This document shows, piece after piece, positions 50,706 through 58,536 of a DNA stretch of 64,000 nucleotides; the stretch's first letter is position 1; each line of letters starts with the position of its first letter. The notes beneath the pieces are model-generated. The model was not told the origin of the DNA, ran no database searches, and saw nothing but the letters and a program-made list of their open reading frames with translations. The stretch comes from Armatimonadota bacterium (GTDB lineage Bacteria > Armatimonadota > UBA5829), in NCBI GenBank assembly GCA_029907315.1, contig JARYME010000001.1, positions 15,613-79,612 of the forward strand, given 5' to 3'. A program made the position numbers and the translations under genes.

Positions 50706-51479
50706 ATGGGTAACAACGAACTGCCTAGAGATCTCATTGAAGCTATGCGCAGCGCCAAGTGCGTCTTTGTATTCACGGGTGCTGGAGCAAGCAAAGAATC
50801 TGGACTACCAACATTCCGCGAAATCGATGGCGAGTGGACCAGGCACGACCCGATGACCTTTGCCACTTTTGAAGGGTTCATTTCCAATCCGGTGAAGGTT
50901 TGGAACCTATACCGCCTCAGACAACGCCAGATAGCGTCAGCGCAACCGAACCCAGCCCACACTACGATTGCTGAGATGGAGCAATACTACCCGGAGTTTC
51001 TGCTCTGCACGCAAAACGTCGACGACCTGCATGAACGGGCTGGCAGTCGCAAGATTGTCAAGCTGCACGGCGATGCTTGGCAAATGCGGTGTTTGGACTG
51101 CGGGAAAATCTTCGACACGCGAGACTTTGATCTTCCGGATGAATTTACTGAAGAGACCCTTCCTAAATGTCCGAAGTGTGGCGGTCTGTGTAGACCCAAT
51201 ATAGTCTGGTTTGGGGAATACGTTCCACACGAGGCAATGGCTGCCGCGCTGGATATGGTGTCCAGGTGCGATCTGATGCTCATTGTGGGGACGTCGGGAG
51301 AGGTCTCCGGCGGTTACGGTTTTGCCCAGCAAGCTAGAGCAAATGGGGCAACGGTGGTGGAGATTAATCCGTCGGAAGGTGTGTTGACTCGTTACGCTCA
51401 CTTTTGGGTTCCTGAGCCGGCCGGTTTGGCACTGCCGCGGATATGGAAATCCGTAACCGACAGATGCCGAGCGCAATAA
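50706..51479 (+). CDS. cobB: NAD-dependent protein deacylase, Sir2 family (CobB-like)
   Basis: GAGASKESGLPTFR Rossmann motif, a catalytic His (KLHGD), a Zn ribbon CLDCG ... CPKCGG and IVWFGE; 257 aa. Confidence 0.8.
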   Translation: MGNNELPRDLIEAMRSAKCVFVFTGAGASKESGLPTFREIDGEWTRHDPMTFATFEGFISNPVKVWNLYRLRQRQIASAQPNPAHTTIAEMEQYYPEFLLCTQNVDDLHERAGSRKIVKLHGDAWQMRCLDCGKIFDTRDFDLPDEFTEETLPKCPKCGGLCRPNIVWFGEYVPHEAMAAALDMVSRCDLMLIVGTSGEVSGGYGFAQQARANGATVVEINPSEGVLTRYAHFWVPEPAGLALPRIWKSVTDRCRAQ

Positions 51480-51582: not shown

Positions 51583-51624
51583 TTGACATTGACATTCCTG
51601 GTTAGTGCTGGTACATTTTACATT
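51583..51624 (+). promoter_or_regulatory. Promoter candidate with tandemly duplicated -35 (TTGACATTGACA) and duplicated -10-like (TACATTtTACATT) upstream of nurA-like/herA/sbcDC operon
   Basis: TTGACA at 51583-88 and 51589-94; TACATT at 51612-17 and 51619-24. The second -35 and first -10 are 17 nt apart. Confidence 0.4.
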
Positions 51625-52651
51625 GGCTGACATGAGCAAGCTCCTGCGCAAATTGGCCTCTTCTATTGCACACCAGGCGGACCCGCAAATTCACGTTGTA
51701 ATTGGCAGCGAGTTCTCCGACGAAGAGTCGCCTAGTCTTGTGCCTGCCGTGCCCCAGACGGCATCAGCTGAAATTGTGGAACCTTCCGGTAAAATAGACC
51801 CGGTGCCCGTAGGTACGCCGAACACCAGCGGATTTTCATACTTTATGGACGGCATGGAGCGCCGTCGGTTGGTTATGTACATTTCGGGGATACCCGTTGT
51901 CTATGGTTATGCGGCGGCAGGGATTCGCTGGCGCGGTGCAGATAAGCGGATGTACGCGCACGGCGATCCAAGCGAACGAGAGGCATTGTTTTGTCCAAGG
52001 AGACTGCTCGAACAGCTCTTCTTCGATTTGGATATTGACGTCGTCGATATTGAGGACGCGGGCAGCGCACTGGAAGACCATCCAATGATTTTCTTGGAAG
52101 CTGCCAAAAAGAAGGTGTCCGACATTCGGTCCAAACTCGAGGCAGAGGTGACCTCTAGGTGGCTTGCAGAGTTTGACGGATCGAACGAATGGCTGTTGGT
52201 TGATGGATCTATCTCTGGCAACTACGACCAATACCCGGCGCCAAATATCGTTGGTGTTGTGAAGAGCCACCAAACACAATATTTCCCGATCGAGGATCAG
52301 CGGAAAATACAGGCTCTGCGCGTAGGTGAGAGGAGTGGCCTGTTCATACCTAAGGGCAGGAATCGACCCGACGTTTACAGTTGGTACCTGAGGCTCTGGC
52401 CGAATGAAGGCCAAGACTTACATTTCGGACTCGTCAGGGTGGAAGCGCCGAAGTGCGATCGAACCGTCAGAATGGTAGATGAGATATCTCGGTGGCTGCT
52501 CGCTGAGCGGGCACCGCTCAGTATGCCCGATTCGCGCTGGGATAGGATGCTCTATCCGATACGTGACTGCGAGCAGTTTCTCAGGTCGCGTGCACCGAGC
52601 AAGACGGTCCTTGACGCAATTCTTATGCGATTTGCGGCAGGGAGGGGATAG
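51605..52651 (+). CDS. Hypothetical protein, candidate NurA-like nuclease partner of HerA (inference)
   Basis: 348 aa, ending 4 nt before the HerA-like gene. It carries hhhDG-type motifs (YFMDGME about residue 80, LLVDGSISG about residue 200) and later E/D clusters (SEREALF, DLDIDVVDIED) that are spaced roughly like NurA catalytic D-E-D. The start is GTG 51605 or ATG 51632. Confidence 0.4.
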   Translation: MLVHFTLADMSKLLRKLASSIAHQADPQIHVVIGSEFSDEESPSLVPAVPQTASAEIVEPSGKIDPVPVGTPNTSGFSYFMDGMERRRLVMYISGIPVVYGYAAAGIRWRGADKRMYAHGDPSEREALFCPRRLLEQLFFDLDIDVVDIEDAGSALEDHPMIFLEAAKKKVSDIRSKLEAEVTSRWLAEFDGSNEWLLVDGSISGNYDQYPAPNIVGVVKSHQTQYFPIEDQRKIQALRVGERSGLFIPKGRNRPDVYSWYLRLWPNEGQDLHFGLVRVEAPKCDRTVRMVDEISRWLLAERAPLSMPDSRWDRMLYPIRDCEQFLRSRAPSKTVLDAILMRFAAGRG

Positions 52652-52654
52652 CCG

Positions 52655-54643
52655 ATGATCAATGAACCACACACATCTGCAAGCAACGAGTCGACTTTTT
52701 TCGCCAAGACGACTGAGATTACCGACCGACAGATCGGTCGAGTTATAGCAACCAAAGATAAACCGAATACCGCGTATGAGTTCTATTTCTGGACGAGCTG
52801 CGATGACGCCAGTGTCGGCATAGGGACGCTTGTTGTCGCTGCAAGTCCAAAGACTCGAGCGTACGGGGTTGTGGTTGAAGGCTTCAGCTTTACCGATCTC
52901 GAGTCACCGCTACATGAGTATATTGGCCTAAATGGCGATCCTCGTATGGAAGCTCAAACGTCGCGGCCGGAGGTCAGATGTTACAAGGCAGCAGTGTTGC
53001 GTGTAGAACCGGAGGAGCCCCTTCAGCCAGTGCCGGTTGCGCCAGTCTATCTGGCTGACGATGTTGGCGTAGCAAAAGCGCTGAGAATGGATTCGTTCCA
53101 ATATACGACAGGTATTCCGGTCGGTCTTTATCAGAACGGAGATGAGCTATCGCCGGTGTATATTGACAGCGAGTTCCTACTTGGTCCTGAAGCTGCTCAC
53201 TTGAACGTAACTGGCGTTTCTGGTTTGGCGACCAAAACAAGCGCGATCGAGTTCATCCTATTATCCATATTTGAGCATTTCAAGGAAGACATTGCTGTTG
53301 TGTGTTTCAATGTCAAGGGCTCCGACCTTCTCTTCTTGGATTATCCGGCTGAAGAGAACATGCTTGACGAGCGCGATAGAAAGATGCACAGCCTTCTAGG
53401 AGTTCCATGCGAGCCTTTTCGAAACGTCAAATACTTTGCGCCGTTCAAACCTGATCGTGTGAACTTGAATACGCTGCGAACGAATCCTGAGTTGGTTCAG
53501 TCCGTAACTCCTCTATCTTGGGGTCTGAACGAAGTACTTGAGTTTACCGAAGTCGTTCTCAACAGGGACGACATTGACGCAAAGGCAGATGCGCTTATCG
53601 AATTCATCAGACAGCGCGTGATTAACCAAACCACCGAAGTCAATGGTCAACAGATAACCGTGCGCAATTTCCAAGACCTGAACCGGTGGTTTGACCTGGT
53701 TATGCGTGACATGGAGGAAAACAACAAATCGGAATGGAAAACGCATCACTATGCGACCATACGAAAGGTCCACAACCGCCTGTCGAATCTGAGTACGAGG
53801 TATAAAGGCCTTATTAGCCCGGACGAATTCGTATCCGACCTTCCGTGGGGTCGGTTCGAGGATCGTACCGTATATGTCGTCGATGTCGCAAATTTAGAGC
53901 CACAGGCACAAGACCTAGTTTTTACAAGAATTGTTTCTGAACTTAGACATCACCTCGAGACAGGCAAGCTCGGCGTGAAACACGTGATTGTTGTGGTTGA
54001 CGAGTTGAACAAGTATGCTCCTGCAGACGGTCCCGACACGTATCTTCGACAGACGCTTTTAGATATTTCCGAGCGTGGTAGATATCTGGGATTGGTCTTG
54101 TTCTCAGCGCAGCAGTTTCGCAGCCAAGTTCACAAGCGTATTGTCGGAAATTCAGGTACGTGCATCTATGGGCGCATGGACATGGATGAGCTGGCAACTC
54201 CTGGTTACCAAGTGCTCACCTCCGCTACTAAAGAGAAACTGGCGACTCTTCCGAAAGGCCAGTTGATGATTCGGCACCCCCATTTCACGCAGCCTATATT
54301 CGTTAAGTTTCCGCGTCCCAACATTATGCGCGGTCCTGATGGAATCAGAAGGTACCCGCCGGCAGAAGATTTGCCATTGGATGAGGCTGTTTGGTTAAAT
54401 CTTTCCCGCTTGGATCCGTCGATAAGTCGGAACGAAGTAAGAGACATCGTGGCAGAGACGTCTGACCAGGACGAGATTATTCGCGCAATGAACCTCACGC
54501 TGCAGCGCGTTCCACAGGACCCTGTTGCCGCGTTCAGAAGCGCAATCCGCAAGAAGGCCGGCGTGCTGAGTCCGGAGGAAAAACCTTCTATAGCAATCAA
54601 GGATGCTGGAAGCGACGGGTCCGATCCATTTGAGACGATCTAG
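52655..54643 (+). CDS. herA: HerA-like FtsK/HerA-superfamily ATPase (N-terminal HAS-barrel-like domain + RecA-like ATPase)
   Basis: An N-terminal HAS-barrel-like segment (IGRVIATKDKPNTAYEFYFWTS ... GTLVVAAS ... AYGVVVEGFSF). A Walker-A-like NVTGVSGLATKTSAIEF. A Walker B HVIVVVDELNKYAP; 662 aa. Confidence 0.6.
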   Translation: MINEPHTSASNESTFFAKTTEITDRQIGRVIATKDKPNTAYEFYFWTSCDDASVGIGTLVVAASPKTRAYGVVVEGFSFTDLESPLHEYIGLNGDPRMEAQTSRPEVRCYKAAVLRVEPEEPLQPVPVAPVYLADDVGVAKALRMDSFQYTTGIPVGLYQNGDELSPVYIDSEFLLGPEAAHLNVTGVSGLATKTSAIEFILLSIFEHFKEDIAVVCFNVKGSDLLFLDYPAEENMLDERDRKMHSLLGVPCEPFRNVKYFAPFKPDRVNLNTLRTNPELVQSVTPLSWGLNEVLEFTEVVLNRDDIDAKADALIEFIRQRVINQTTEVNGQQITVRNFQDLNRWFDLVMRDMEENNKSEWKTHHYATIRKVHNRLSNLSTRYKGLISPDEFVSDLPWGRFEDRTVYVVDVANLEPQAQDLVFTRIVSELRHHLETGKLGVKHVIVVVDELNKYAPADGPDTYLRQTLLDISERGRYLGLVLFSAQQFRSQVHKRIVGNSGTCIYGRMDMDELATPGYQVLTSATKEKLATLPKGQLMIRHPHFTQPIFVKFPRPNIMRGPDGIRRYPPAEDLPLDEAVWLNLSRLDPSISRNEVRDIVAETSDQDEIIRAMNLTLQRVPQDPVAAFRSAIRKKAGVLSPEEKPSIAIKDAGSDGSDPFETI

Positions 54644-54678
54644 GCTTTGCTTGATTAAGTGCGAAAAGACGTCCGACA

Positions 54679-55818
54679 ATGCGAGTAGTACACATTTCCG
54701 ATCCACATCTAGGCTACCGGGCTTACAATCGCGTGACTCCGGCTGGCATAAACGTGCGGGAAGCTGACGTGTTCAATGCATTTCGCGCTGCGTTGAGACG
54801 AACCGCCGAGATCGCACCTGATCTCATCGTTATCGCGGGTGATCTCTTCCACGTTGTTCGTCCCAGCAATTTGACCATTCAACACACATTTAGAGAGTTT
54901 CTTTCCCTTAGGCAGAAGTCAAACGCTCCAATTGTCATCATCGGGGGCAACCACGATTCGCCTAGGTCGGTTGACACCGGGTGCATACTCGATTTGTACG
55001 CACACTTGCCCGGCGTGTATGTAGCGCATACAGAGTACGTTCAAATCCCTCTGAAGGACTTGGACACATCGGTGTTCTGTCTGTGCCATCGAGCTCTGCC
55101 GCAGCTGTCCTCATTGAAGATCGAGCCTGATCCGTCGAGTAAGTACAACGTACTCGTCGCGCATGGAACCGTTGAAGGAATCGTGCGCAATGCTTACGAC
55201 CTTGTCGAAATTAGCCGCTCCCAAGTTCTTTCGGATGGCTGGGACTACATTGCTTTCGGGCATTACCACGTGTTTGAGAAACTAGCTGACAACGCCTACT
55301 ATTCTGGTTCCTTGGAGTACACGAGCACTTCCATCTGGGGCGAGGCCTCGCAGCCGAAGGGTTTTGTTGAGTACGATCTTGACCAACGCAGCCTTTTGCA
55401 GTTCCACGAGATAGAGACTCGGGAAGTTATCGATCTGCGCCCAATTGACGCGTCCGGAATTACTGCCGCGGAACTCGACCGCGCTATCGAGCAGCGCATA
55501 ATGGCAATTAAGGGCGGCTGGAAAAACAAGATCATCCGGCTTGTGGTTCAAAACGTGCCGCGTTCGGTGCAGGCCGACTTGGACTACGCAGCGATTCGAC
55601 GGATTCGCTCGGAAGCTTTGCATTTTGAATTGCAGCTTAGACCACCACAGGTTGTTCGAAGAGATGACCACTTGTTGCGAGATGCCGGTCCTGCCAGACC
55701 ACTTGAGGCTGAGTGGGAGGAATTTGCTAAAACCTGTCAGATTGCACCTGGTATCGACCGAGAACACCTTGCAGCACTGGGACGGGAATACCTCTTGAAG
55801 CAAGCTGCGGCCGAGTGA
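54679..55818 (+). CDS. sbcD: Mre11/SbcD-family DNA double-strand-break repair nuclease
   Basis: Calcineurin-like phosphoesterase motifs: HISDPHLG (I), IAGDLFH (II), GNHD (III), and later H motifs (AHGTVEG, GHYH). Confidence 0.8.
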   Translation: MRVVHISDPHLGYRAYNRVTPAGINVREADVFNAFRAALRRTAEIAPDLIVIAGDLFHVVRPSNLTIQHTFREFLSLRQKSNAPIVIIGGNHDSPRSVDTGCILDLYAHLPGVYVAHTEYVQIPLKDLDTSVFCLCHRALPQLSSLKIEPDPSSKYNVLVAHGTVEGIVRNAYDLVEISRSQVLSDGWDYIAFGHYHVFEKLADNAYYSGSLEYTSTSIWGEASQPKGFVEYDLDQRSLLQFHEIETREVIDLRPIDASGITAAELDRAIEQRIMAIKGGWKNKIIRLVVQNVPRSVQADLDYAAIRRIRSEALHFELQLRPPQVVRRDDHLLRDAGPARPLEAEWEEFAKTCQIAPGIDREHLAALGREYLLKQAAAE

Positions 55819-55846
55819 AGGTATTGATTAGGAGTGCAGAAGCGCC

Positions 55847-58285
55847 GTGAAGCTGATAAGTCTTGAGCTCAAAAACTTTCGACAGTACAGAAGCGCGTCG
55901 ATCTCATTTCCCGACGGCGTTACAGGAATCATAGGTCCCAACGGTGCGGGCAAGACTACCATTCTAGAAGCTATTGCCTGGACGCTGTATGGCGCCCCTG
56001 CTGTTCGGGGCAAGAACGAGACGATCAGGTCAAATTCTTCTGAGCCCAACGCTCGGCCGAGCGCCTCTCTCACATTCGAGCTCGGCGGACAAATCTACAG
56101 CATAACCAGATCTCTCGACCCTTCAGGCAGGGTGGGGCAGGCTGTACTGGAGATTGATGGCAAGCCTGTTCGCTCAGGGATGTCGGAGGTAACAGAGGCA
56201 ATAACAAGCCTTCTGGGTATGGATTACCGAGCATTCTTTACCAGTTTTTTCACTGGCCAGAAGCAGCTGGAGTTCATGGCAGCGCTTGACGGGCGCGCGC
56301 GTGAGGCTGCGATAAGCCGAATGCTTGGCTACGACCGTCTTACCAAGGCGCGCGAGCAAGTAAATCAAGACAGGCTGGGACTCGAGCGCGAGATCCAAGG
56401 CTTGGAGAAGGGCCTGCCGGATCCTGAAGACCTGGCTCGACGTCTCAACGATGCTCAGGAGCGTCTCAATACCGCTTTTACGGCACTGCGTGAAGCCGAA
56501 ATTCGCCACCGCCAAGCAGCGGATACGCTGAGCAAATTGGTTCCTGTTAAGGACGAGTCTGACAAGAAAGCCAAGGCATACGAAAACCTCAGTAGACAAT
56601 TGGAGCTACACAAAGCCGAACTGCAGCGTGCCGAGGAGCGCTTGCTGCAGGTTCGTGCGGAGTTGGCTGATCTGGCATCCAGGCGCGCCGAGCTTGACTC
56701 GCTGCAGCTTGATCTCAAGCGATATGAAGAAGCAGGCGCGGAGTACAAGAGACTGAAAGCCCTCCAGGTACACGAGGCTGAGCGGCAGCAGCTTGCGGGA
56801 CAGATAAGGACACTGGAAGCAGAGGTGGAGCGGCTTGAGTCTAGGGTTGTAAAACTGCGTTCGGCGCGCAATGAGCAAGAAAAACTCGCTGCTGCCGTGT
56901 CTGAAACTCAAACCTTGCTTTCTTCAGCAGAAGCGGAGTTGCAGCGTCTGCGAGAGGAGCTTGTAGCGAAGAGACACTCATTGGAGGTGCAGATAAAACA
57001 GCTGACAAAGCAACGATCAGATGTCCAGGCAAAGCGCAACCAGATTGCGCAGGCGGGCCGCGAGGGTGCTTGTCCAACTTGTGAGAGGCCGCTGGGCGAA
57101 GAATTGGATGTTGTGCTTGCCCGGTTTGACTCACAGGTAAGCGATATTGACAGGACTCTGGGTGATCTCAATGCACAGCTTTCCGGTCTGTCGCGTTATG
57201 AAACGCTGATTGGCGATGTAGCTGCACAAAGAAACAAACTTGCCGATCAACTTGAGTCTCTGCGAAAAGAGAAATCGGATGCTGATGCGAGAGTCAAAGA
57301 GTACGAGACACTCCTCAAAGATATCGAGCAGAGAAAAGCAGAACTGACGAAGTGTCGAGAACGCCTAGATTTGCTTCCGAAGGGTTTCGACCAGTTCAGG
57401 TTTCAAGAGCTTCAAAGGATAGGAGAAGAACTCCGACCCGTGCGGGAACGAGCGGTTGCGCTAAAGGCGGCTTTGGACAGGGAACCGACGCTGCGCACTG
57501 AAGAAGCGGATCTAGACTCGCGCGTACGGGATTTAAGAAGTCATGTCACCTCACTGGGCCAGGCTATCGAAGATCTACAGTTTTCGAATGAGCAGCACGA
57601 GTCAATATCGCAGGAGTTTCAGAAGGCCAGCCAAGCTGTAGCAGATGCGGCAGTGGAATTGGAGCGGTGCAAGGGGGATGTGAGGAGCGCAAGACTCCTT
57701 TTAGACGCTGTCGAACGAGAGCAGCGCGATTATGAAGAAAGGATGCGTGAGCTTCAATCGAAGCGCTTCCAACACGCACACCTGCGCGCCTTGGCTGAGG
57801 CTTTCGACAAGCTCAGAGCTGATCTGAATGACCGTATCAGGCCGGAATTGGAGTATACTGCGAGCCAGCTGCTTTCGGTGATGACTGATGGGCGGTACAA
57901 CGTGCTGCGCATCGACGATGACTACAAGCCGGTTATTGTTGACGACGGAGAGGAAAAACCGGTTATATCCGGCGGTGAGGACGATATAGTTAACCTTGCC
58001 TTGAGACTTGCGATATCCCAGATGATTGCAGACCGAGCAGGACAGTCATTCTCGCTGCTGATATTAGATGAAGTCTTCGGCTCACTCGATGAGACACGGC
58101 GCCAAAATGTGGTGAGTTTACTTCAGAATCTCAAGAACAGATTTGAGCAAATAATATTGATCACGCATATCGAATCTATACATGATGCCGTGGATAACTG
58201 CCTTTGGGTAGAGTTTGATGAAAACAGTAAAACTAGCCGGATCGCCGAGCGTCGTGCCGAAGACTTCGTGGAAATGGCGGTTTAG
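55847..58285 (+). CDS. sbcC: Rad50/SbcC-family SMC-like ATPase with central CxxC zinc hook
   Basis: N-terminal Walker A (GPNGAGKTT). A long coiled coil with CPTC at mid-length. C-terminal signature SGGE and Walker B (LLILDEVFGSLD); 812 aa. GTG start. Confidence 0.8.
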   Translation: MKLISLELKNFRQYRSASISFPDGVTGIIGPNGAGKTTILEAIAWTLYGAPAVRGKNETIRSNSSEPNARPSASLTFELGGQIYSITRSLDPSGRVGQAVLEIDGKPVRSGMSEVTEAITSLLGMDYRAFFTSFFTGQKQLEFMAALDGRAREAAISRMLGYDRLTKAREQVNQDRLGLEREIQGLEKGLPDPEDLARRLNDAQERLNTAFTALREAEIRHRQAADTLSKLVPVKDESDKKAKAYENLSRQLELHKAELQRAEERLLQVRAELADLASRRAELDSLQLDLKRYEEAGAEYKRLKALQVHEAERQQLAGQIRTLEAEVERLESRVVKLRSARNEQEKLAAAVSETQTLLSSAEAELQRLREELVAKRHSLEVQIKQLTKQRSDVQAKRNQIAQAGREGACPTCERPLGEELDVVLARFDSQVSDIDRTLGDLNAQLSGLSRYETLIGDVAAQRNKLADQLESLRKEKSDADARVKEYETLLKDIEQRKAELTKCRERLDLLPKGFDQFRFQELQRIGEELRPVRERAVALKAALDREPTLRTEEADLDSRVRDLRSHVTSLGQAIEDLQFSNEQHESISQEFQKASQAVADAAVELERCKGDVRSARLLLDAVEREQRDYEERMRELQSKRFQHAHLRALAEAFDKLRADLNDRIRPELEYTASQLLSVMTDGRYNVLRIDDDYKPVIVDDGEEKPVISGGEDDIVNLALRLAISQMIADRAGQSFSLLILDEVFGSLDETRRQNVVSLLQNLKNRFEQIILITHIESIHDAVDNCLWVEFDENSKTSRIAERRAEDFVEMAV

Positions 58286-58536
58286 TTTCCTGTCCCGTTA
58301 CTTCTTTTTCTGCTCTCGCTCTTCGCGCAAGCGCTGCTTATAACGTTTCTCAGCCCTCTTTCTGCGCTGCCGTAGTTCTTTTGCGCGTATTCTCAGCTTG
58401 CTTCACCTCCCATCGTGTCTGTTTCAAACTGGATTATATTGTCGACGTGCGTCAGTGTCAAGATTTGGGGGTAGACCCGCCGCGCCTGCGTGGAAGCTTA
58501 TTTATCTCCGCGCCATGAATCAGGCGGTCGAGTTGC

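What the first reader, a model, noticed from the sequence alone, without database searches (positions are those of the whole stretch)
51583..58285. Archaeal-style four-gene DSB end-resection operon (NurA-like? - HerA - Mre11/SbcD - Rad50/SbcC) in a bacterium
Four genes on one strand, with 4- to 35-nt spacers, follow a promoter that has tandem TTGACA boxes:
- a 348-aa unknown gene
- a HerA-like FtsK/HerA-superfamily ATPase
- Mre11/SbcD with all phosphoesterase motifs
- Rad50/SbcC with a CxxC zinc hook

Bacterial sbcDC is normally a two-gene unit. HerA plus NurA linked to mre11-rad50 is the hallmark of the archaeal end-resection operon, and bacterial herA/nurA (Deinococcus/Thermus) are usually separate from sbcDC. 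The 348-aa gene sits exactly where a NurA partner is expected. It carries DG motifs and acidic clusters that could form an RNase-H-like nuclease site. It could instead be a different, uncharacterised HerA partner. In that case the locus would be an undescribed HerA-centred module, possibly defensive, that recruits SbcCD.
Basis: partly seen in the sequence, partly recalled or inferred. Interest (0 to 1): 0.75.

Follow-up and report, generated by a model that had tools for sequence, protein, structure and literature searches.

The report
Bacterial nurA-herA-mre11-rad50 DNA-break repair operon
An uncultured Armatimonadota bacterium carries, as one conserved operon, the four genes that archaea use to trim broken DNA ends; its unnamed first gene is a divergent NurA nuclease, so this extends a known system to new bacterial phyla and is not a new kind of system.

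Summary
Four co-oriented ORFs (51605/51632-52651, 52655-54643, 54679-55818, 55847-58285) are separated by 3, 35 and 28 nt and follow a TTGACA-17-TACATT promoter.

The "unknown" 348-aa protein is a NurA nuclease of the bacterial type:
- A family profile hits the two bacterial NurA structures at E 9e-9 and 6e-7.
- The RNase-H-like triad D82/E179/D200 is invariant.
- Pfam's NurA model misses it, and databases call it hypothetical.

The 662-aa protein is a bacterial-type HerA (E 5e-48 to D. radiodurans HerA; Walker A and B conserved). Mre11 has all five phosphoesterase motifs. Rad50 has a central CPTC zinc hook.

The order nurA-herA-mre11-rad50 recurs in 13 of 21 assessable Armatimonadota-like loci and 17 of 18 Gemmatimonadota-like loci. 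The surroundings are housekeeping genes, with no defence signatures.

The same bacterial arrangement was already noted in Oceanithermus profundus (PMC5448004). This is therefore a new member of a known kind. It extends bacterial NurA-HerA well beyond Deinococcus-Thermus and gives genomic-context evidence that it works with Mre11-Rad50. Interest is moderate to low.

The parts
51583..51617 (+). Promoter of the operon. It has tandem TTGACA boxes (51583-51588 and 51589-51594). The second box lies 17 nt upstream of the extended -10 element TGgTACATT (-10 hexamer 51612-51617).
   Evidence: 10 of 12 consensus positions, TG present. A TTGACA-17/18-TA(C/G)NNT element at the same position was found by the pattern search upstream of nurA in about 25 related Armatimonadota loci.
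51632..52651 (+). nurA, a divergent bacterial-type NurA nuclease. The likely start is the ATG at 51632 (339 aa); the mechanical ORF starts at the GTG at 51605 (348 aa). The proposed catalytic residues, in 348-aa numbering, are D82 (51848-51850), E179 (52139-52141) and D200 (52202-52204).
52655..54643 (+). herA, a bacterial-type HerA hexameric translocase ATPase. Walker A GVSGLATKT is at 53213-53239 and Walker B VVVDE at 53990-54004. The protein has a C-terminal extension of about 100 aa that ends in a conserved acidic DPF tip (54623-54631).
   Evidence: E 4.9e-48 to D. radiodurans HerA 7f6d_B, aligning residues 26-293 and 338-556 and including K/T of Walker A and D/E of Walker B. The C-terminal motif is conserved across nearly all of the ~60 loci with a readable HerA C-terminus.
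54679..55818 (+). mre11/sbcD nuclease. Phosphoesterase motifs: I DPH 54700-54708, II GDLFH 54838-54852, III GNHD 54946-54957, IV AHG 55159-55167, V GHYH 55258-55269.
   Evidence: Pfam Metallophos 55.5 bits against a cut-off of 21.5. NCBIfam Mre11_Sulfo 2e-20 and sbcd 4.7e-20. The best PDB match is M. jannaschii Mre11 at 1e-16.
55847..58285 (+). rad50/sbcC ABC-type ATPase with a coiled coil. Walker A is at 55934-55957, the zinc hook CPTC at 57071-57082, the signature SGG at 57968-57976 and Walker B LLILDE at 58055-58072.
   Evidence: Pfam SMC_N 90.2 bits and SbcC_Walker_B 34 bits, both above cut-off. NCBIfam archaeal Rad50 PRK03918 1.2e-74 against sbcc 6.5e-37. The best PDB matches are M. jannaschii and P. 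furiosus Rad50 at about 3e-27.

Best explanation
This is a chromosomal, housekeeping operon for processing DNA double-strand-break ends in an Armatimonadota bacterium. It encodes NurA, HerA, Mre11 and Rad50, transcribed from one sigma-70-type promoter.

Proposed mechanism, by analogy with the characterised archaeal and Deinococcus systems:
1. The Mre11(2)-Rad50(2) complex (zinc-hook coiled coils, ABC ATPase heads, Mn-dependent phosphoesterase) recognises and tethers the DNA end and performs the initial clean-up.
2. A HerA hexamer with a NurA dimer docked on its N-terminal barrel face loads on the end.
3. ATP-driven translocation by HerA pushes the duplex into the NurA dimer.
4. There the strands are separated and the 5' strand is digested at the RNase-H-like site (D82/E179/D200), leaving a long 3' tail for RecA.

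Shown here: the identity and fold of all four proteins, intact catalytic motifs, tight co-orientation, a conserved promoter upstream of nurA, and conservation of the four-gene order in two phyla.

Inferred, not shown: physical complexes, nuclease polarity, co-transcription, and cooperation of the two modules in vivo.
For: - NurA identity.
- HerA identity, with Walker A and B aligned to the residues shown to be essential in D. radiodurans HerA (K175/T176 and D487/E488, per PMC9960219).
- Mre11 and Rad50 identity and motifs.
- Operon structure: gaps of 3, 35 and 28 nt. A promoter is conserved upstream of nurA in about 25 loci.
- Conserved order: nurA-herA-mre11-rad50 on one strand in 13 of 21 assessable Armatimonadota-like loci and 17 of 18 assessable Gemmatimonadota-like loci. 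Identities of all four proteins fall together with distance, consistent with inheritance as a block.
- Housekeeping setting: flanking genes are a CobB-type sirtuin, an S8 protease, sulfate-assimilation genes and a sulfotransferase. G+C is even across the window. Upstream synteny is shared with relatives.
- No defence or viral signal: no PADLOC hit for NurA or for the neighbours, and no relative found in 2.9 million viral contigs.
- Literature: archaeal HerA-NurA cooperates with Mre11-Rad50, and the D. radiodurans NurA-HerA complex resects 5' strands (PMC3326311, PMC9960219). The same bacterial gene architecture was read as DSB repair in Oceanithermus (PMC5448004).
Against: - There is no experimental or expression data for this organism.
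- In D. radiodurans and Thermus, nurA/herA mutants have only modest or even improved damage resistance, and the authors doubt that Deinococcus NurA-HerA is an efficient resection machine in vivo (PMC9960219).
- Seven Armatimonadota loci carry nurA-herA without mre11-rad50 downstream, and cyanobacterial homologues of this NurA have no herA nearby. The four-gene link is therefore frequent but not obligatory.
- In Gemmatimonadota an unrelated secreted DUF6263 protein sits between herA and mre11.
- Curated HMMs for NurA, HerA and sbcd are not passed.
- A distant member of the same NurA subfamily, paired with herA, occurs in a Marinitoga temperate phage.
Confidence: 0.8

Rival explanations
1. The cluster is an anti-phage or anti-foreign-DNA defence module. 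A HerA-NurA-type translocase-nuclease (as in the TdpAB complex) would act with an SMC/SbcCD-like sensor to degrade invading DNA instead of repairing the chromosome.
Against: NurA has no PADLOC hit. The mad8, LmuB and PbeC hits are generic P-loop/SMC similarity: mad8 also hits Rad50, and the true NurA, HerA and Rad50 structures score far better. The upstream Sir2 is a canonical CobB protein deacylase above NCBIfam's curated cut-off (263 against 243 bits) and has no PADLOC hit. The neighbours are housekeeping genes, G+C is uniform, and synteny is shared among relatives. The cluster is near-universal within a Gemmatimonadota clade, unlike patchy defence islands. No homologue was found in viral contigs.
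Confidence: 0.08
2. Two independent two-gene units (nurA-herA and sbcD-sbcC) merely lie next to each other, with no functional coupling between them.
For: Seven Armatimonadota loci have nurA-herA alone. In several loci unrelated genes are inserted between herA and mre11: DUF6263 in Gemmatimonadota, and heterogeneous ORFs of 175-206 aa in L003, L004 and L011. In Deinococcus and Thermus the two pairs are unlinked (PMC5448004, PMC4663267).
Against: The same order and strand are kept in two phyla at 35-57% protein identity, in 13 of 21 and 17 of 18 assessable loci, while other flanking genes are not kept. In the window the herA-mre11 gap is only 35 nt, and there is no strong promoter or terminator match between the genes. 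The same four functions are clustered independently in thermophilic archaea, where physical and functional interactions are documented (PMC2288612, PMC3326311).
Confidence: 0.08
3. The HerA-NurA pair acts in DNA transfer, as the HerA-like TdtA and a NurA-like protein do in Thermus transjugation, or in chromosome pumping at cell division, and not in repair.
For: In T. thermophilus, hepA and a second NurA homologue affect transjugation (PMC5448004). The FtsK-HerA superfamily consists of DNA pumps.
Against: There is no integrative or conjugative element context, integrase or transfer gene within about 10 kb. The conserved linkage is to the DSB-repair genes mre11 and rad50.
Confidence: 0.03

Closest known systems
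nurA-hepA(herA)-sbcD-sbcC cluster of Oceanithermus profundus (Thermales), noted by Blesa et al. 2017, PMC5448004
   Same: It is a bacterial locus with a nurA homologue preceding herA, followed downstream by the Mre11/Rad50 homologues. The authors interpreted it as an archaeal-like DSB-repair architecture.
   Different: It comes from a different phylum (a thermophile of Deinococcota, against Armatimonadota and Gemmatimonadota MAGs here). It was mentioned only in passing for one genus. I could not fetch that locus, so sequence relatedness was not measured. The family here has a NurA that Pfam does not recognise and a HerA with a long C-terminal extension.
Deinococcus radiodurans NurA-HerA complex (PDB 7F6D; PMC9960219)
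   Different: NurA shares only about 15% identity in the structural alignment. NurA here has about 75 extra N-terminal residues. HerA here carries a C-terminal module of about 100 aa ending in D-P-F/Y, whereas Deinococcus HerA has a "short C-terminal protrusion". In Deinococcus the pair is not linked to sbcCD, and any connection was described as still to be uncovered (PMC4663267).
Archaeal herA-mre11-rad50-nurA operon of thermophilic archaea (Constantinesco et al. 2004; Sulfolobus and Pyrococcus systems)
   Same: The same four functions are encoded in one co-oriented cluster. Mre11 and Rad50 here score best against archaeal proteins (M. jannaschii, P. furiosus; NCBIfam archaeal Rad50 at 252 bits against sbcc at 127 bits).
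Escherichia coli SbcCD
   Same: It has the same Mre11/Rad50 family nuclease-ATPase pair and adjacent genes.
   Different: It is a two-gene unit without HerA/NurA. E. coli SbcD matches only at about 1e-5, and E. coli SbcC is not among hits at 1e-8. Rad50 here is 812 aa, which is shorter.
TdpAB complex (PDB 8WET)
   Different: Structural similarity is lower than to bona fide NurA. There is no modification gene or defence context here, and the cluster is linked to mre11-rad50 instead.

Membership tests
NurA nuclease (bacterial type) | RNase-H-like/PIWI-like catalytic fold with NurA topology | tested here: met
NurA nuclease (bacterial type) | Conserved acidic catalytic residues (D on beta1, E on alpha1, D on beta4; Sso D58/E116/D133) | tested here: met
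   D82, E179 and D200 are invariant in 46 diverse family members. They lie on the predicted beta1, alpha1 and the end of beta4. FxDG and xDG align with FVDG and KDG of TM1739, and with the phage NurA-like protein. The Sso residues are from PMC3326311.
NurA nuclease (bacterial type) | Match to the Pfam NurA model PF09376 above the gathering threshold | tested here: not met
   The window protein gives no hit even at E <= 1. Only 4 of 21 homologues give weak hits, the best at E 6.4e-4. Homology becomes significant only with a family profile against NurA structures (E 8.6e-9 and 5.6e-7). It is a divergent subfamily outside the curated model.
NurA nuclease (bacterial type) | Encoded next to herA | tested here: met
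   The gap to herA in the window is 3 nt. herA is adjacent in 28 of 31 Armatimonadota-like and 23 of 33 Gemmatimonadota-like loci, but in 0 of 11 cyanobacterial loci.
NurA nuclease (bacterial type) | Dimer that binds the HerA HAS-barrel; Mn-dependent 5'-3' exo/endonuclease activity | not testable with these tools
   This needs multimer modelling or biochemistry.
HerA (FtsK-HerA superfamily translocase, bacterial type) | Full-length homology to a characterised HerA (HAS-barrel plus RecA-like domain) | tested here: met
   E 4.9e-48 to D. radiodurans HerA 7f6d_B. Residues 26-293 and 338-556 align to 14-297 and 371-593 of that protein.
HerA (FtsK-HerA superfamily translocase, bacterial type) | Walker A lysine/threonine and Walker B D-E | tested here: met
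   GVSGLATKT (residues 187-195) aligns with GISGVATKT of Deinococcus HerA (K175/T176). VVVDE (446-450) aligns with VVLDE (D487/E488).
HerA (FtsK-HerA superfamily translocase, bacterial type) | Curated HMM thresholds (Pfam DUF87/HerA central domain; NCBIfam HerA_Thermprot) | tested here: not met
   DUF87 scores 17.9 bits against a 23.2 cut-off. HerA_Thermprot scores 25.4 bits against 800. That model is an archaeal equivalog, so failing it says the protein is not the archaeal orthologue.
Mre11/SbcD | Calcineurin-like phosphoesterase domain with the five Mre11 motifs | tested here: met
   Metallophos scores 55.5 bits against 21.5. DPH, GDLFH, GNHD, AHG and GHYH are all present. The best PDB hits are Mre11 proteins.
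Mre11/SbcD | NCBIfam sbcd subfamily (TIGR00619) cut-off | tested here: not met
   72.5 bits against a 77.65 cut-off, so it is narrowly missed. The archaeal Mre11 equivalogs score far below their cut-offs.
Rad50/SbcC | Split ABC ATPase head (Walker A, signature, Walker B) flanking a long coiled coil | tested here: met
   SMC_N spans residues 3-795 at 90.2 bits against 40. SbcC_Walker_B scores 34 against 27. GPNGAGKT, SGG and LLILDE are present.
Rad50/SbcC | CxxC zinc hook at the apex of the coiled coil | tested here: met
   CPTC lies at residues 409-412 of 812, the midpoint of the protein. The Pfam Rad50_zn_hook model places a match there but below threshold (14.1 against 24.3).
Archaeal herA-mre11-rad50-nurA operon | All four genes adjacent and co-oriented, conserved across genomes | tested here: met
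Archaeal herA-mre11-rad50-nurA operon | Archaeal-type HerA and NurA orthologues | tested here: not met
Known anti-phage systems with HerA or SMC components (Sir2-HerA, DUF4297-HerA, TdpAB, Lamassu, MADS) | System-specific partner proteins and a defence-island context | tested here: not met
   No PADLOC hit for NurA, for the upstream sirtuin or for the neighbours. The sirtuin is a CobB-type deacylase. The flanks are housekeeping genes. There is no relative in viral contigs.

The most novel reading that the evidence does not exclude
In Armatimonadota and Gemmatimonadota, many of which are not thermophiles, NurA-HerA-Mre11-Rad50 may be one co-regulated machine that serves as the main route of DSB end resection. 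It would take the place of RecBCD/AddAB, making these bacterial lineages that run the "archaeal" pathway. The universally conserved C-terminal module of HerA, ending in an acidic D-P-F/Y tip that resembles the SSB C-terminal peptide, would be the tether that couples HerA-NurA to Mre11-Rad50, RecJ or SSB partners. Deinococcus HerA lacks this feature.
Probability: 0.2. Interest if true: 0.55.

Novelty: new member of a known kind. Interest (0 to 1): 0.33.

Why it matters
[quoted passage not shown] It also treats any connection to SbcCD as an open question (PMC9960219, PMC4663267).

This locus and its relatives add three things:
- **A missed NurA subfamily.** A sizeable NurA subfamily is annotated everywhere as "hypothetical" and is missed by Pfam. 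A scan of one genome per species found 336 relatives, and 1156 representatives at 50% identity match the family profile. It is spread over Armatimonadota, Gemmatimonadota and Cyanobacteria.
- **A conserved link to Mre11-Rad50.** In two of these phyla nurA-herA is stably fused into one operon with mre11-rad50. This is comparative-genomic evidence that the bacterial HerA-NurA module works with Mre11-Rad50, as it does in archaea.
- **Practical value.** It allows better annotation and gives candidate systems, outside extremophiles, in which to test HerA-NurA/MR cooperation.

It does not reveal a new mechanism.

Tried and rejected
- **Single-sequence HMM scans of the 348-aa protein** (Pfam, NCBIfam, PADLOC) found nothing. 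Single-sequence phmmer against PDB gave only a marginal hit to TM1739 at E 0.24. Family profiles and a structure prediction were needed.
- **Sir2-HerA defence idea.** It was prompted by the Sir2-family gene directly upstream. I rejected it because that gene is a canonical CobB deacylase above the curated cut-off and has no PADLOC hit.
- **A conserved fifth gene between herA and mre11.** The inserted ORFs in Armatimonadota loci L003, L004 and L011 are unrelated to each other. The Gemmatimonadota insert is a secreted DUF6263 protein. It is not a system component.
- **Viral origin.** The viral-contig scan with profile A2 failed because it had no conserved stretch to search with. With A1 it found no relatives. 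The phage-record search gave one distant hit, Marinitoga camini virus 1.
- **Plasmids.** Only three partial, distant hits.
- **Conserved neighbours of the cyanobacterial orphan NurA-like genes.** None found.
- **Small RNA or small ORF** behind the perfect minus-strand promoter downstream of rad50. Nothing was found by Rfam or the ORF listing.
- **RDRM-like or LexA-box reading of the TTGACATTGACA repeat.** Rejected by inspection of the sequence: it is a direct repeat, not a palindrome, and the duplication is not conserved.
- **Literature searches** for nurA/herA in Armatimonadota or Gemmatimonadota, or for a systematic bacterial survey, found nothing.

Full report
**Observation**

The window carries four + strand ORFs at 51605-52651 (348 aa, GTG start), 52655-54643 (662 aa), 54679-55818 (379 aa) and 55847-58285 (812 aa). 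The gaps between them are 3, 35 and 28 nt.

Upstream, TTGACATTGACA occupies 51583-51594. The consensus scan pairs the second TTGACA with TACATT (51612-51617) at a 17-nt spacing, preceded by TG. A pattern search for this promoter, run on every related locus with at least 200 nt upstream of nurA (77 sequences including the window), found TTGACA-17/18-TA(C/G)NNT at the same place upstream of nurA in about 25 Armatimonadota loci. The promoter is therefore real and conserved. The tandem duplication of the -35 box is peculiar to this genome and to L004.

The GTG at 51605 lies inside the promoter spacer, and homologues begin at MSxLL. The start is therefore most likely the ATG at 51632 (339 aa), only 14 nt after the -10 element. 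That implies a nearly leaderless message; this last point is inference.

The exact protein is on record as a hypothetical protein of an Armatimonadota MAG. The organism is therefore a bacterium.

**The first gene**

On its own the 348-aa protein matches nothing in Pfam, NCBIfam or PADLOC. Against PDB it gives only E 0.24 to TM1739. It has 1390 homologues in the large protein collection, all unnamed.

- A 21-sequence profile puts D. radiodurans NurA (7f6d_H) and T. maritima TM1739 (1zup, a bacterial NurA according to PMC9960219) at the top of the PDB list, at E 0.003 and 0.02. Four of the 21 members touch Pfam NurA weakly.
- A broader 46-sequence profile raises these hits to E 8.6e-9 and 5.6e-7.
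- The secondary-structure order fits the bacterial NurA topology described in PMC9960219: beta1-3, an insertion, the long helix alpha1, beta4, beta5 with no large insert, then three C-terminal helices.
- D82 (FxDG, beta1), E179 (alpha1) and D200 (xDG, end of beta4) are invariant across the 46 sequences. They align with the corresponding motifs of TM1739 and of a phage-borne NurA-like protein. This parallels Sso D58/E116/D133 (PMC3326311).

The protein belongs to a divergent subfamily that the curated Pfam model misses. An exhaustive profile search finds 1156 representatives at 50% identity.

**The other three genes**

- *HerA.* The 662-aa protein aligns with D. radiodurans HerA over nearly its full length at E 4.9e-48. 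Its Walker A (GVSGLATKT) and Walker B (VVVDE) match the functionally tested Deinococcus residues. Archaeal HerA is not detected at E <= 1. The Pfam and NCBIfam HerA models are sub-threshold.
- *Mre11.* It has the five phosphoesterase motifs and scores best against M. jannaschii and P. furiosus Mre11, then T. maritima, then E. coli SbcD.
- *Rad50.* It has the ABC head motifs and a CPTC hook at its exact midpoint. It resembles archaeal Rad50 (NCBIfam PRK03918 252 bits) more than SbcC (127 bits).

**Conservation of the linkage**

A scan of one genome per species found 336 relatives of the NurA-like protein, and the best 80 loci were kept. tblastn of the four window proteins against those loci gave the following, counting only loci with enough downstream sequence to judge.

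| Group | nurA-herA-mre11-rad50, same strand and order |
|---|---|
| Armatimonadota-like | 13 of 21 |
| Gemmatimonadota-like | 17 of 18 |
| Cyanobacterial | 0 of 5 (no herA nearby at all) |

- Identities of all four proteins fall together with distance. In Gemmatimonadota they are about 57% for HerA, 40% for Mre11, 35% for Rad50 and 38% for NurA. This is consistent with inheritance or transfer as a block.
- Seven Armatimonadota loci have only nurA-herA.
- Gemmatimonadota carry a conserved secreted DUF6263 gene between herA and mre11.
- Inserts in a few Armatimonadota loci are unrelated to one another.

**Context and the defence rival**

- The neighbours are a CobB-type sirtuin, an S8 protease, an esterase, a sulfotransferase and CysN/C- and CysD-type sulfate-activation genes.
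- G+C is flat across the window.
- No neighbour has a PADLOC hit.
- The PADLOC hits of HerA (mad8) and Rad50 (LmuB, PbeC, mad3) are generic P-loop/SMC similarity.
- No relative was found in IMG/VR viral contigs.
- A distant member of the same NurA subfamily, paired with herA, is present in Marinitoga camini virus 1 (hhalign probability 98.8%).

Taken together, this is a core-genome repair operon and not a defence island.

**Mechanism**

By analogy with the archaeal and Deinococcus systems (PMC3326311, PMC9960219), the steps would be:
1. Mre11-Rad50 recognises and pre-processes the DNA end.
2. The HerA hexamer, with a NurA dimer docked on it, translocates on the duplex.
3. NurA digests the 5' strand, leaving a 3' tail.

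Protein identities, intact motifs and operon conservation are shown here. Complex formation, polarity and in vivo role are inferred.

**Comparison with what is known, and novelty**

The four-gene cluster is classical for thermophilic archaea. In bacteria, nurA-herA is characterised in Deinococcus and Thermus, where it is unlinked to sbcCD. A connection to SbcCD was explicitly described as still to be uncovered (PMC4663267).

However, Blesa et al. 2017 already noted sbcD-sbcC downstream of nurA-hepA in Oceanithermus profundus and read it as an archaeal-like architecture (PMC5448004). I found no paper on this cluster in Armatimonadota or Gemmatimonadota, and no systematic survey. A 2023 paper still states that bacterial NurA-HerA is restricted to a few bacteria.

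The finding is therefore a new member of a known kind. It broadens the taxonomic range, identifies an unannotated NurA subfamily, and adds comparative evidence for HerA-NurA/MR coupling in bacteria.

**Verdict**

The novelty is modest.

Noticed in passing
window 54330-54640 (HerA residues ~560-662); same region of HerA in L001-L080: HerA carries a C-terminal extension of about 100 aa that D. radiodurans HerA lacks. It consists of a conserved helical module (EE-I/V-x-RAMNxTLQRxPxDPxxFFRxxIRKKA), a variable linker, and an acidic D-(D/N)-P-(F/Y) tip lying 0-4 residues (usually 2-3) from the end (window ...SDPFETI; Gemmatimonadota ...NDPYGF). The tip is present in nearly all of the ~60 loci with a readable HerA C-terminus, with or without mre11-rad50. 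It resembles the SSB C-terminal partner-binding peptide.
   Followed up: partly
window 50706-51479 (+); L001-L004, L008, L011-L014, L016, L023, L024: A canonical CobB-type NAD-dependent protein deacylase (Pfam SIR2 6e-49; NCBIfam NF001753 at 263 bits against a 243 cut-off) lies directly upstream of nurA. In 11 of 12 related Armatimonadota loci that carry it, it lies within about 2 kb upstream of nurA; in L008 it is about 4.7 kb away. It occurs on either strand, even where other flanking genes are not conserved. It has no PADLOC hit, so it is not a defence-type Sir2. Whether the linkage has a function is unknown.
   Followed up: partly
L031, L033, L034, L036, L037, L040, L041, L044, L046-L049 (cyanobacterial loci, mostly Pseudanabaenales): Cyanobacterial members of this NurA subfamily (38-42% identity) have no herA, mre11 or rad50 within the flanks that were fetched, and they share no conserved neighbours. 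These are orphan NurA-like genes.
   Followed up: partly
L056 10791-11705 and the equivalent position in L043, L053, L079 and other Gemmatimonadota loci: A gene of 264-304 aa with a signal peptide and a DUF6263 match is conserved between herA and mre11 throughout the Gemmatimonadota loci. Its predicted secretion makes a role in DNA repair unlikely.
   Followed up: partly
L081 5455-8163 (Marinitoga camini virus 1, KP836355.1 38501-41209): A temperate Thermotogae phage record carries a nurA-herA pair. Its NurA belongs to the same Pfam-invisible subfamily (hhalign probability 98.8%, E 1e-16, shared C-terminal PDxRW...YP motif). The pair lies next to LexA-like repressor and antirepressor genes.
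   Followed up: partly
window 58433-58461 (- strand): A perfect consensus promoter (TTGACA-17-TATAAT, 12 of 12) on the minus strand points into the rad50 3' end across the 58286-58432 spacer. No ORF with a canonical start of 26 aa or more, and no Rfam family, was found there. It could drive an antisense or small transcript.
   Followed up: partly
window 51612-51634; L001, L002, L003: In the window and its closest relatives the nurA ATG lies only 11-14 nt after the -10 hexamer, with no Shine-Dalgarno sequence. This implies a leaderless or near-leaderless first gene. More distant relatives have 30-40-nt leaders with GGAAGG-like sites.
   Followed up: no
L005 9232-11500: herA in this MAG locus is split over several frames. 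This is either an apparent frameshift or assembly error, or a pseudogene.
   Followed up: no
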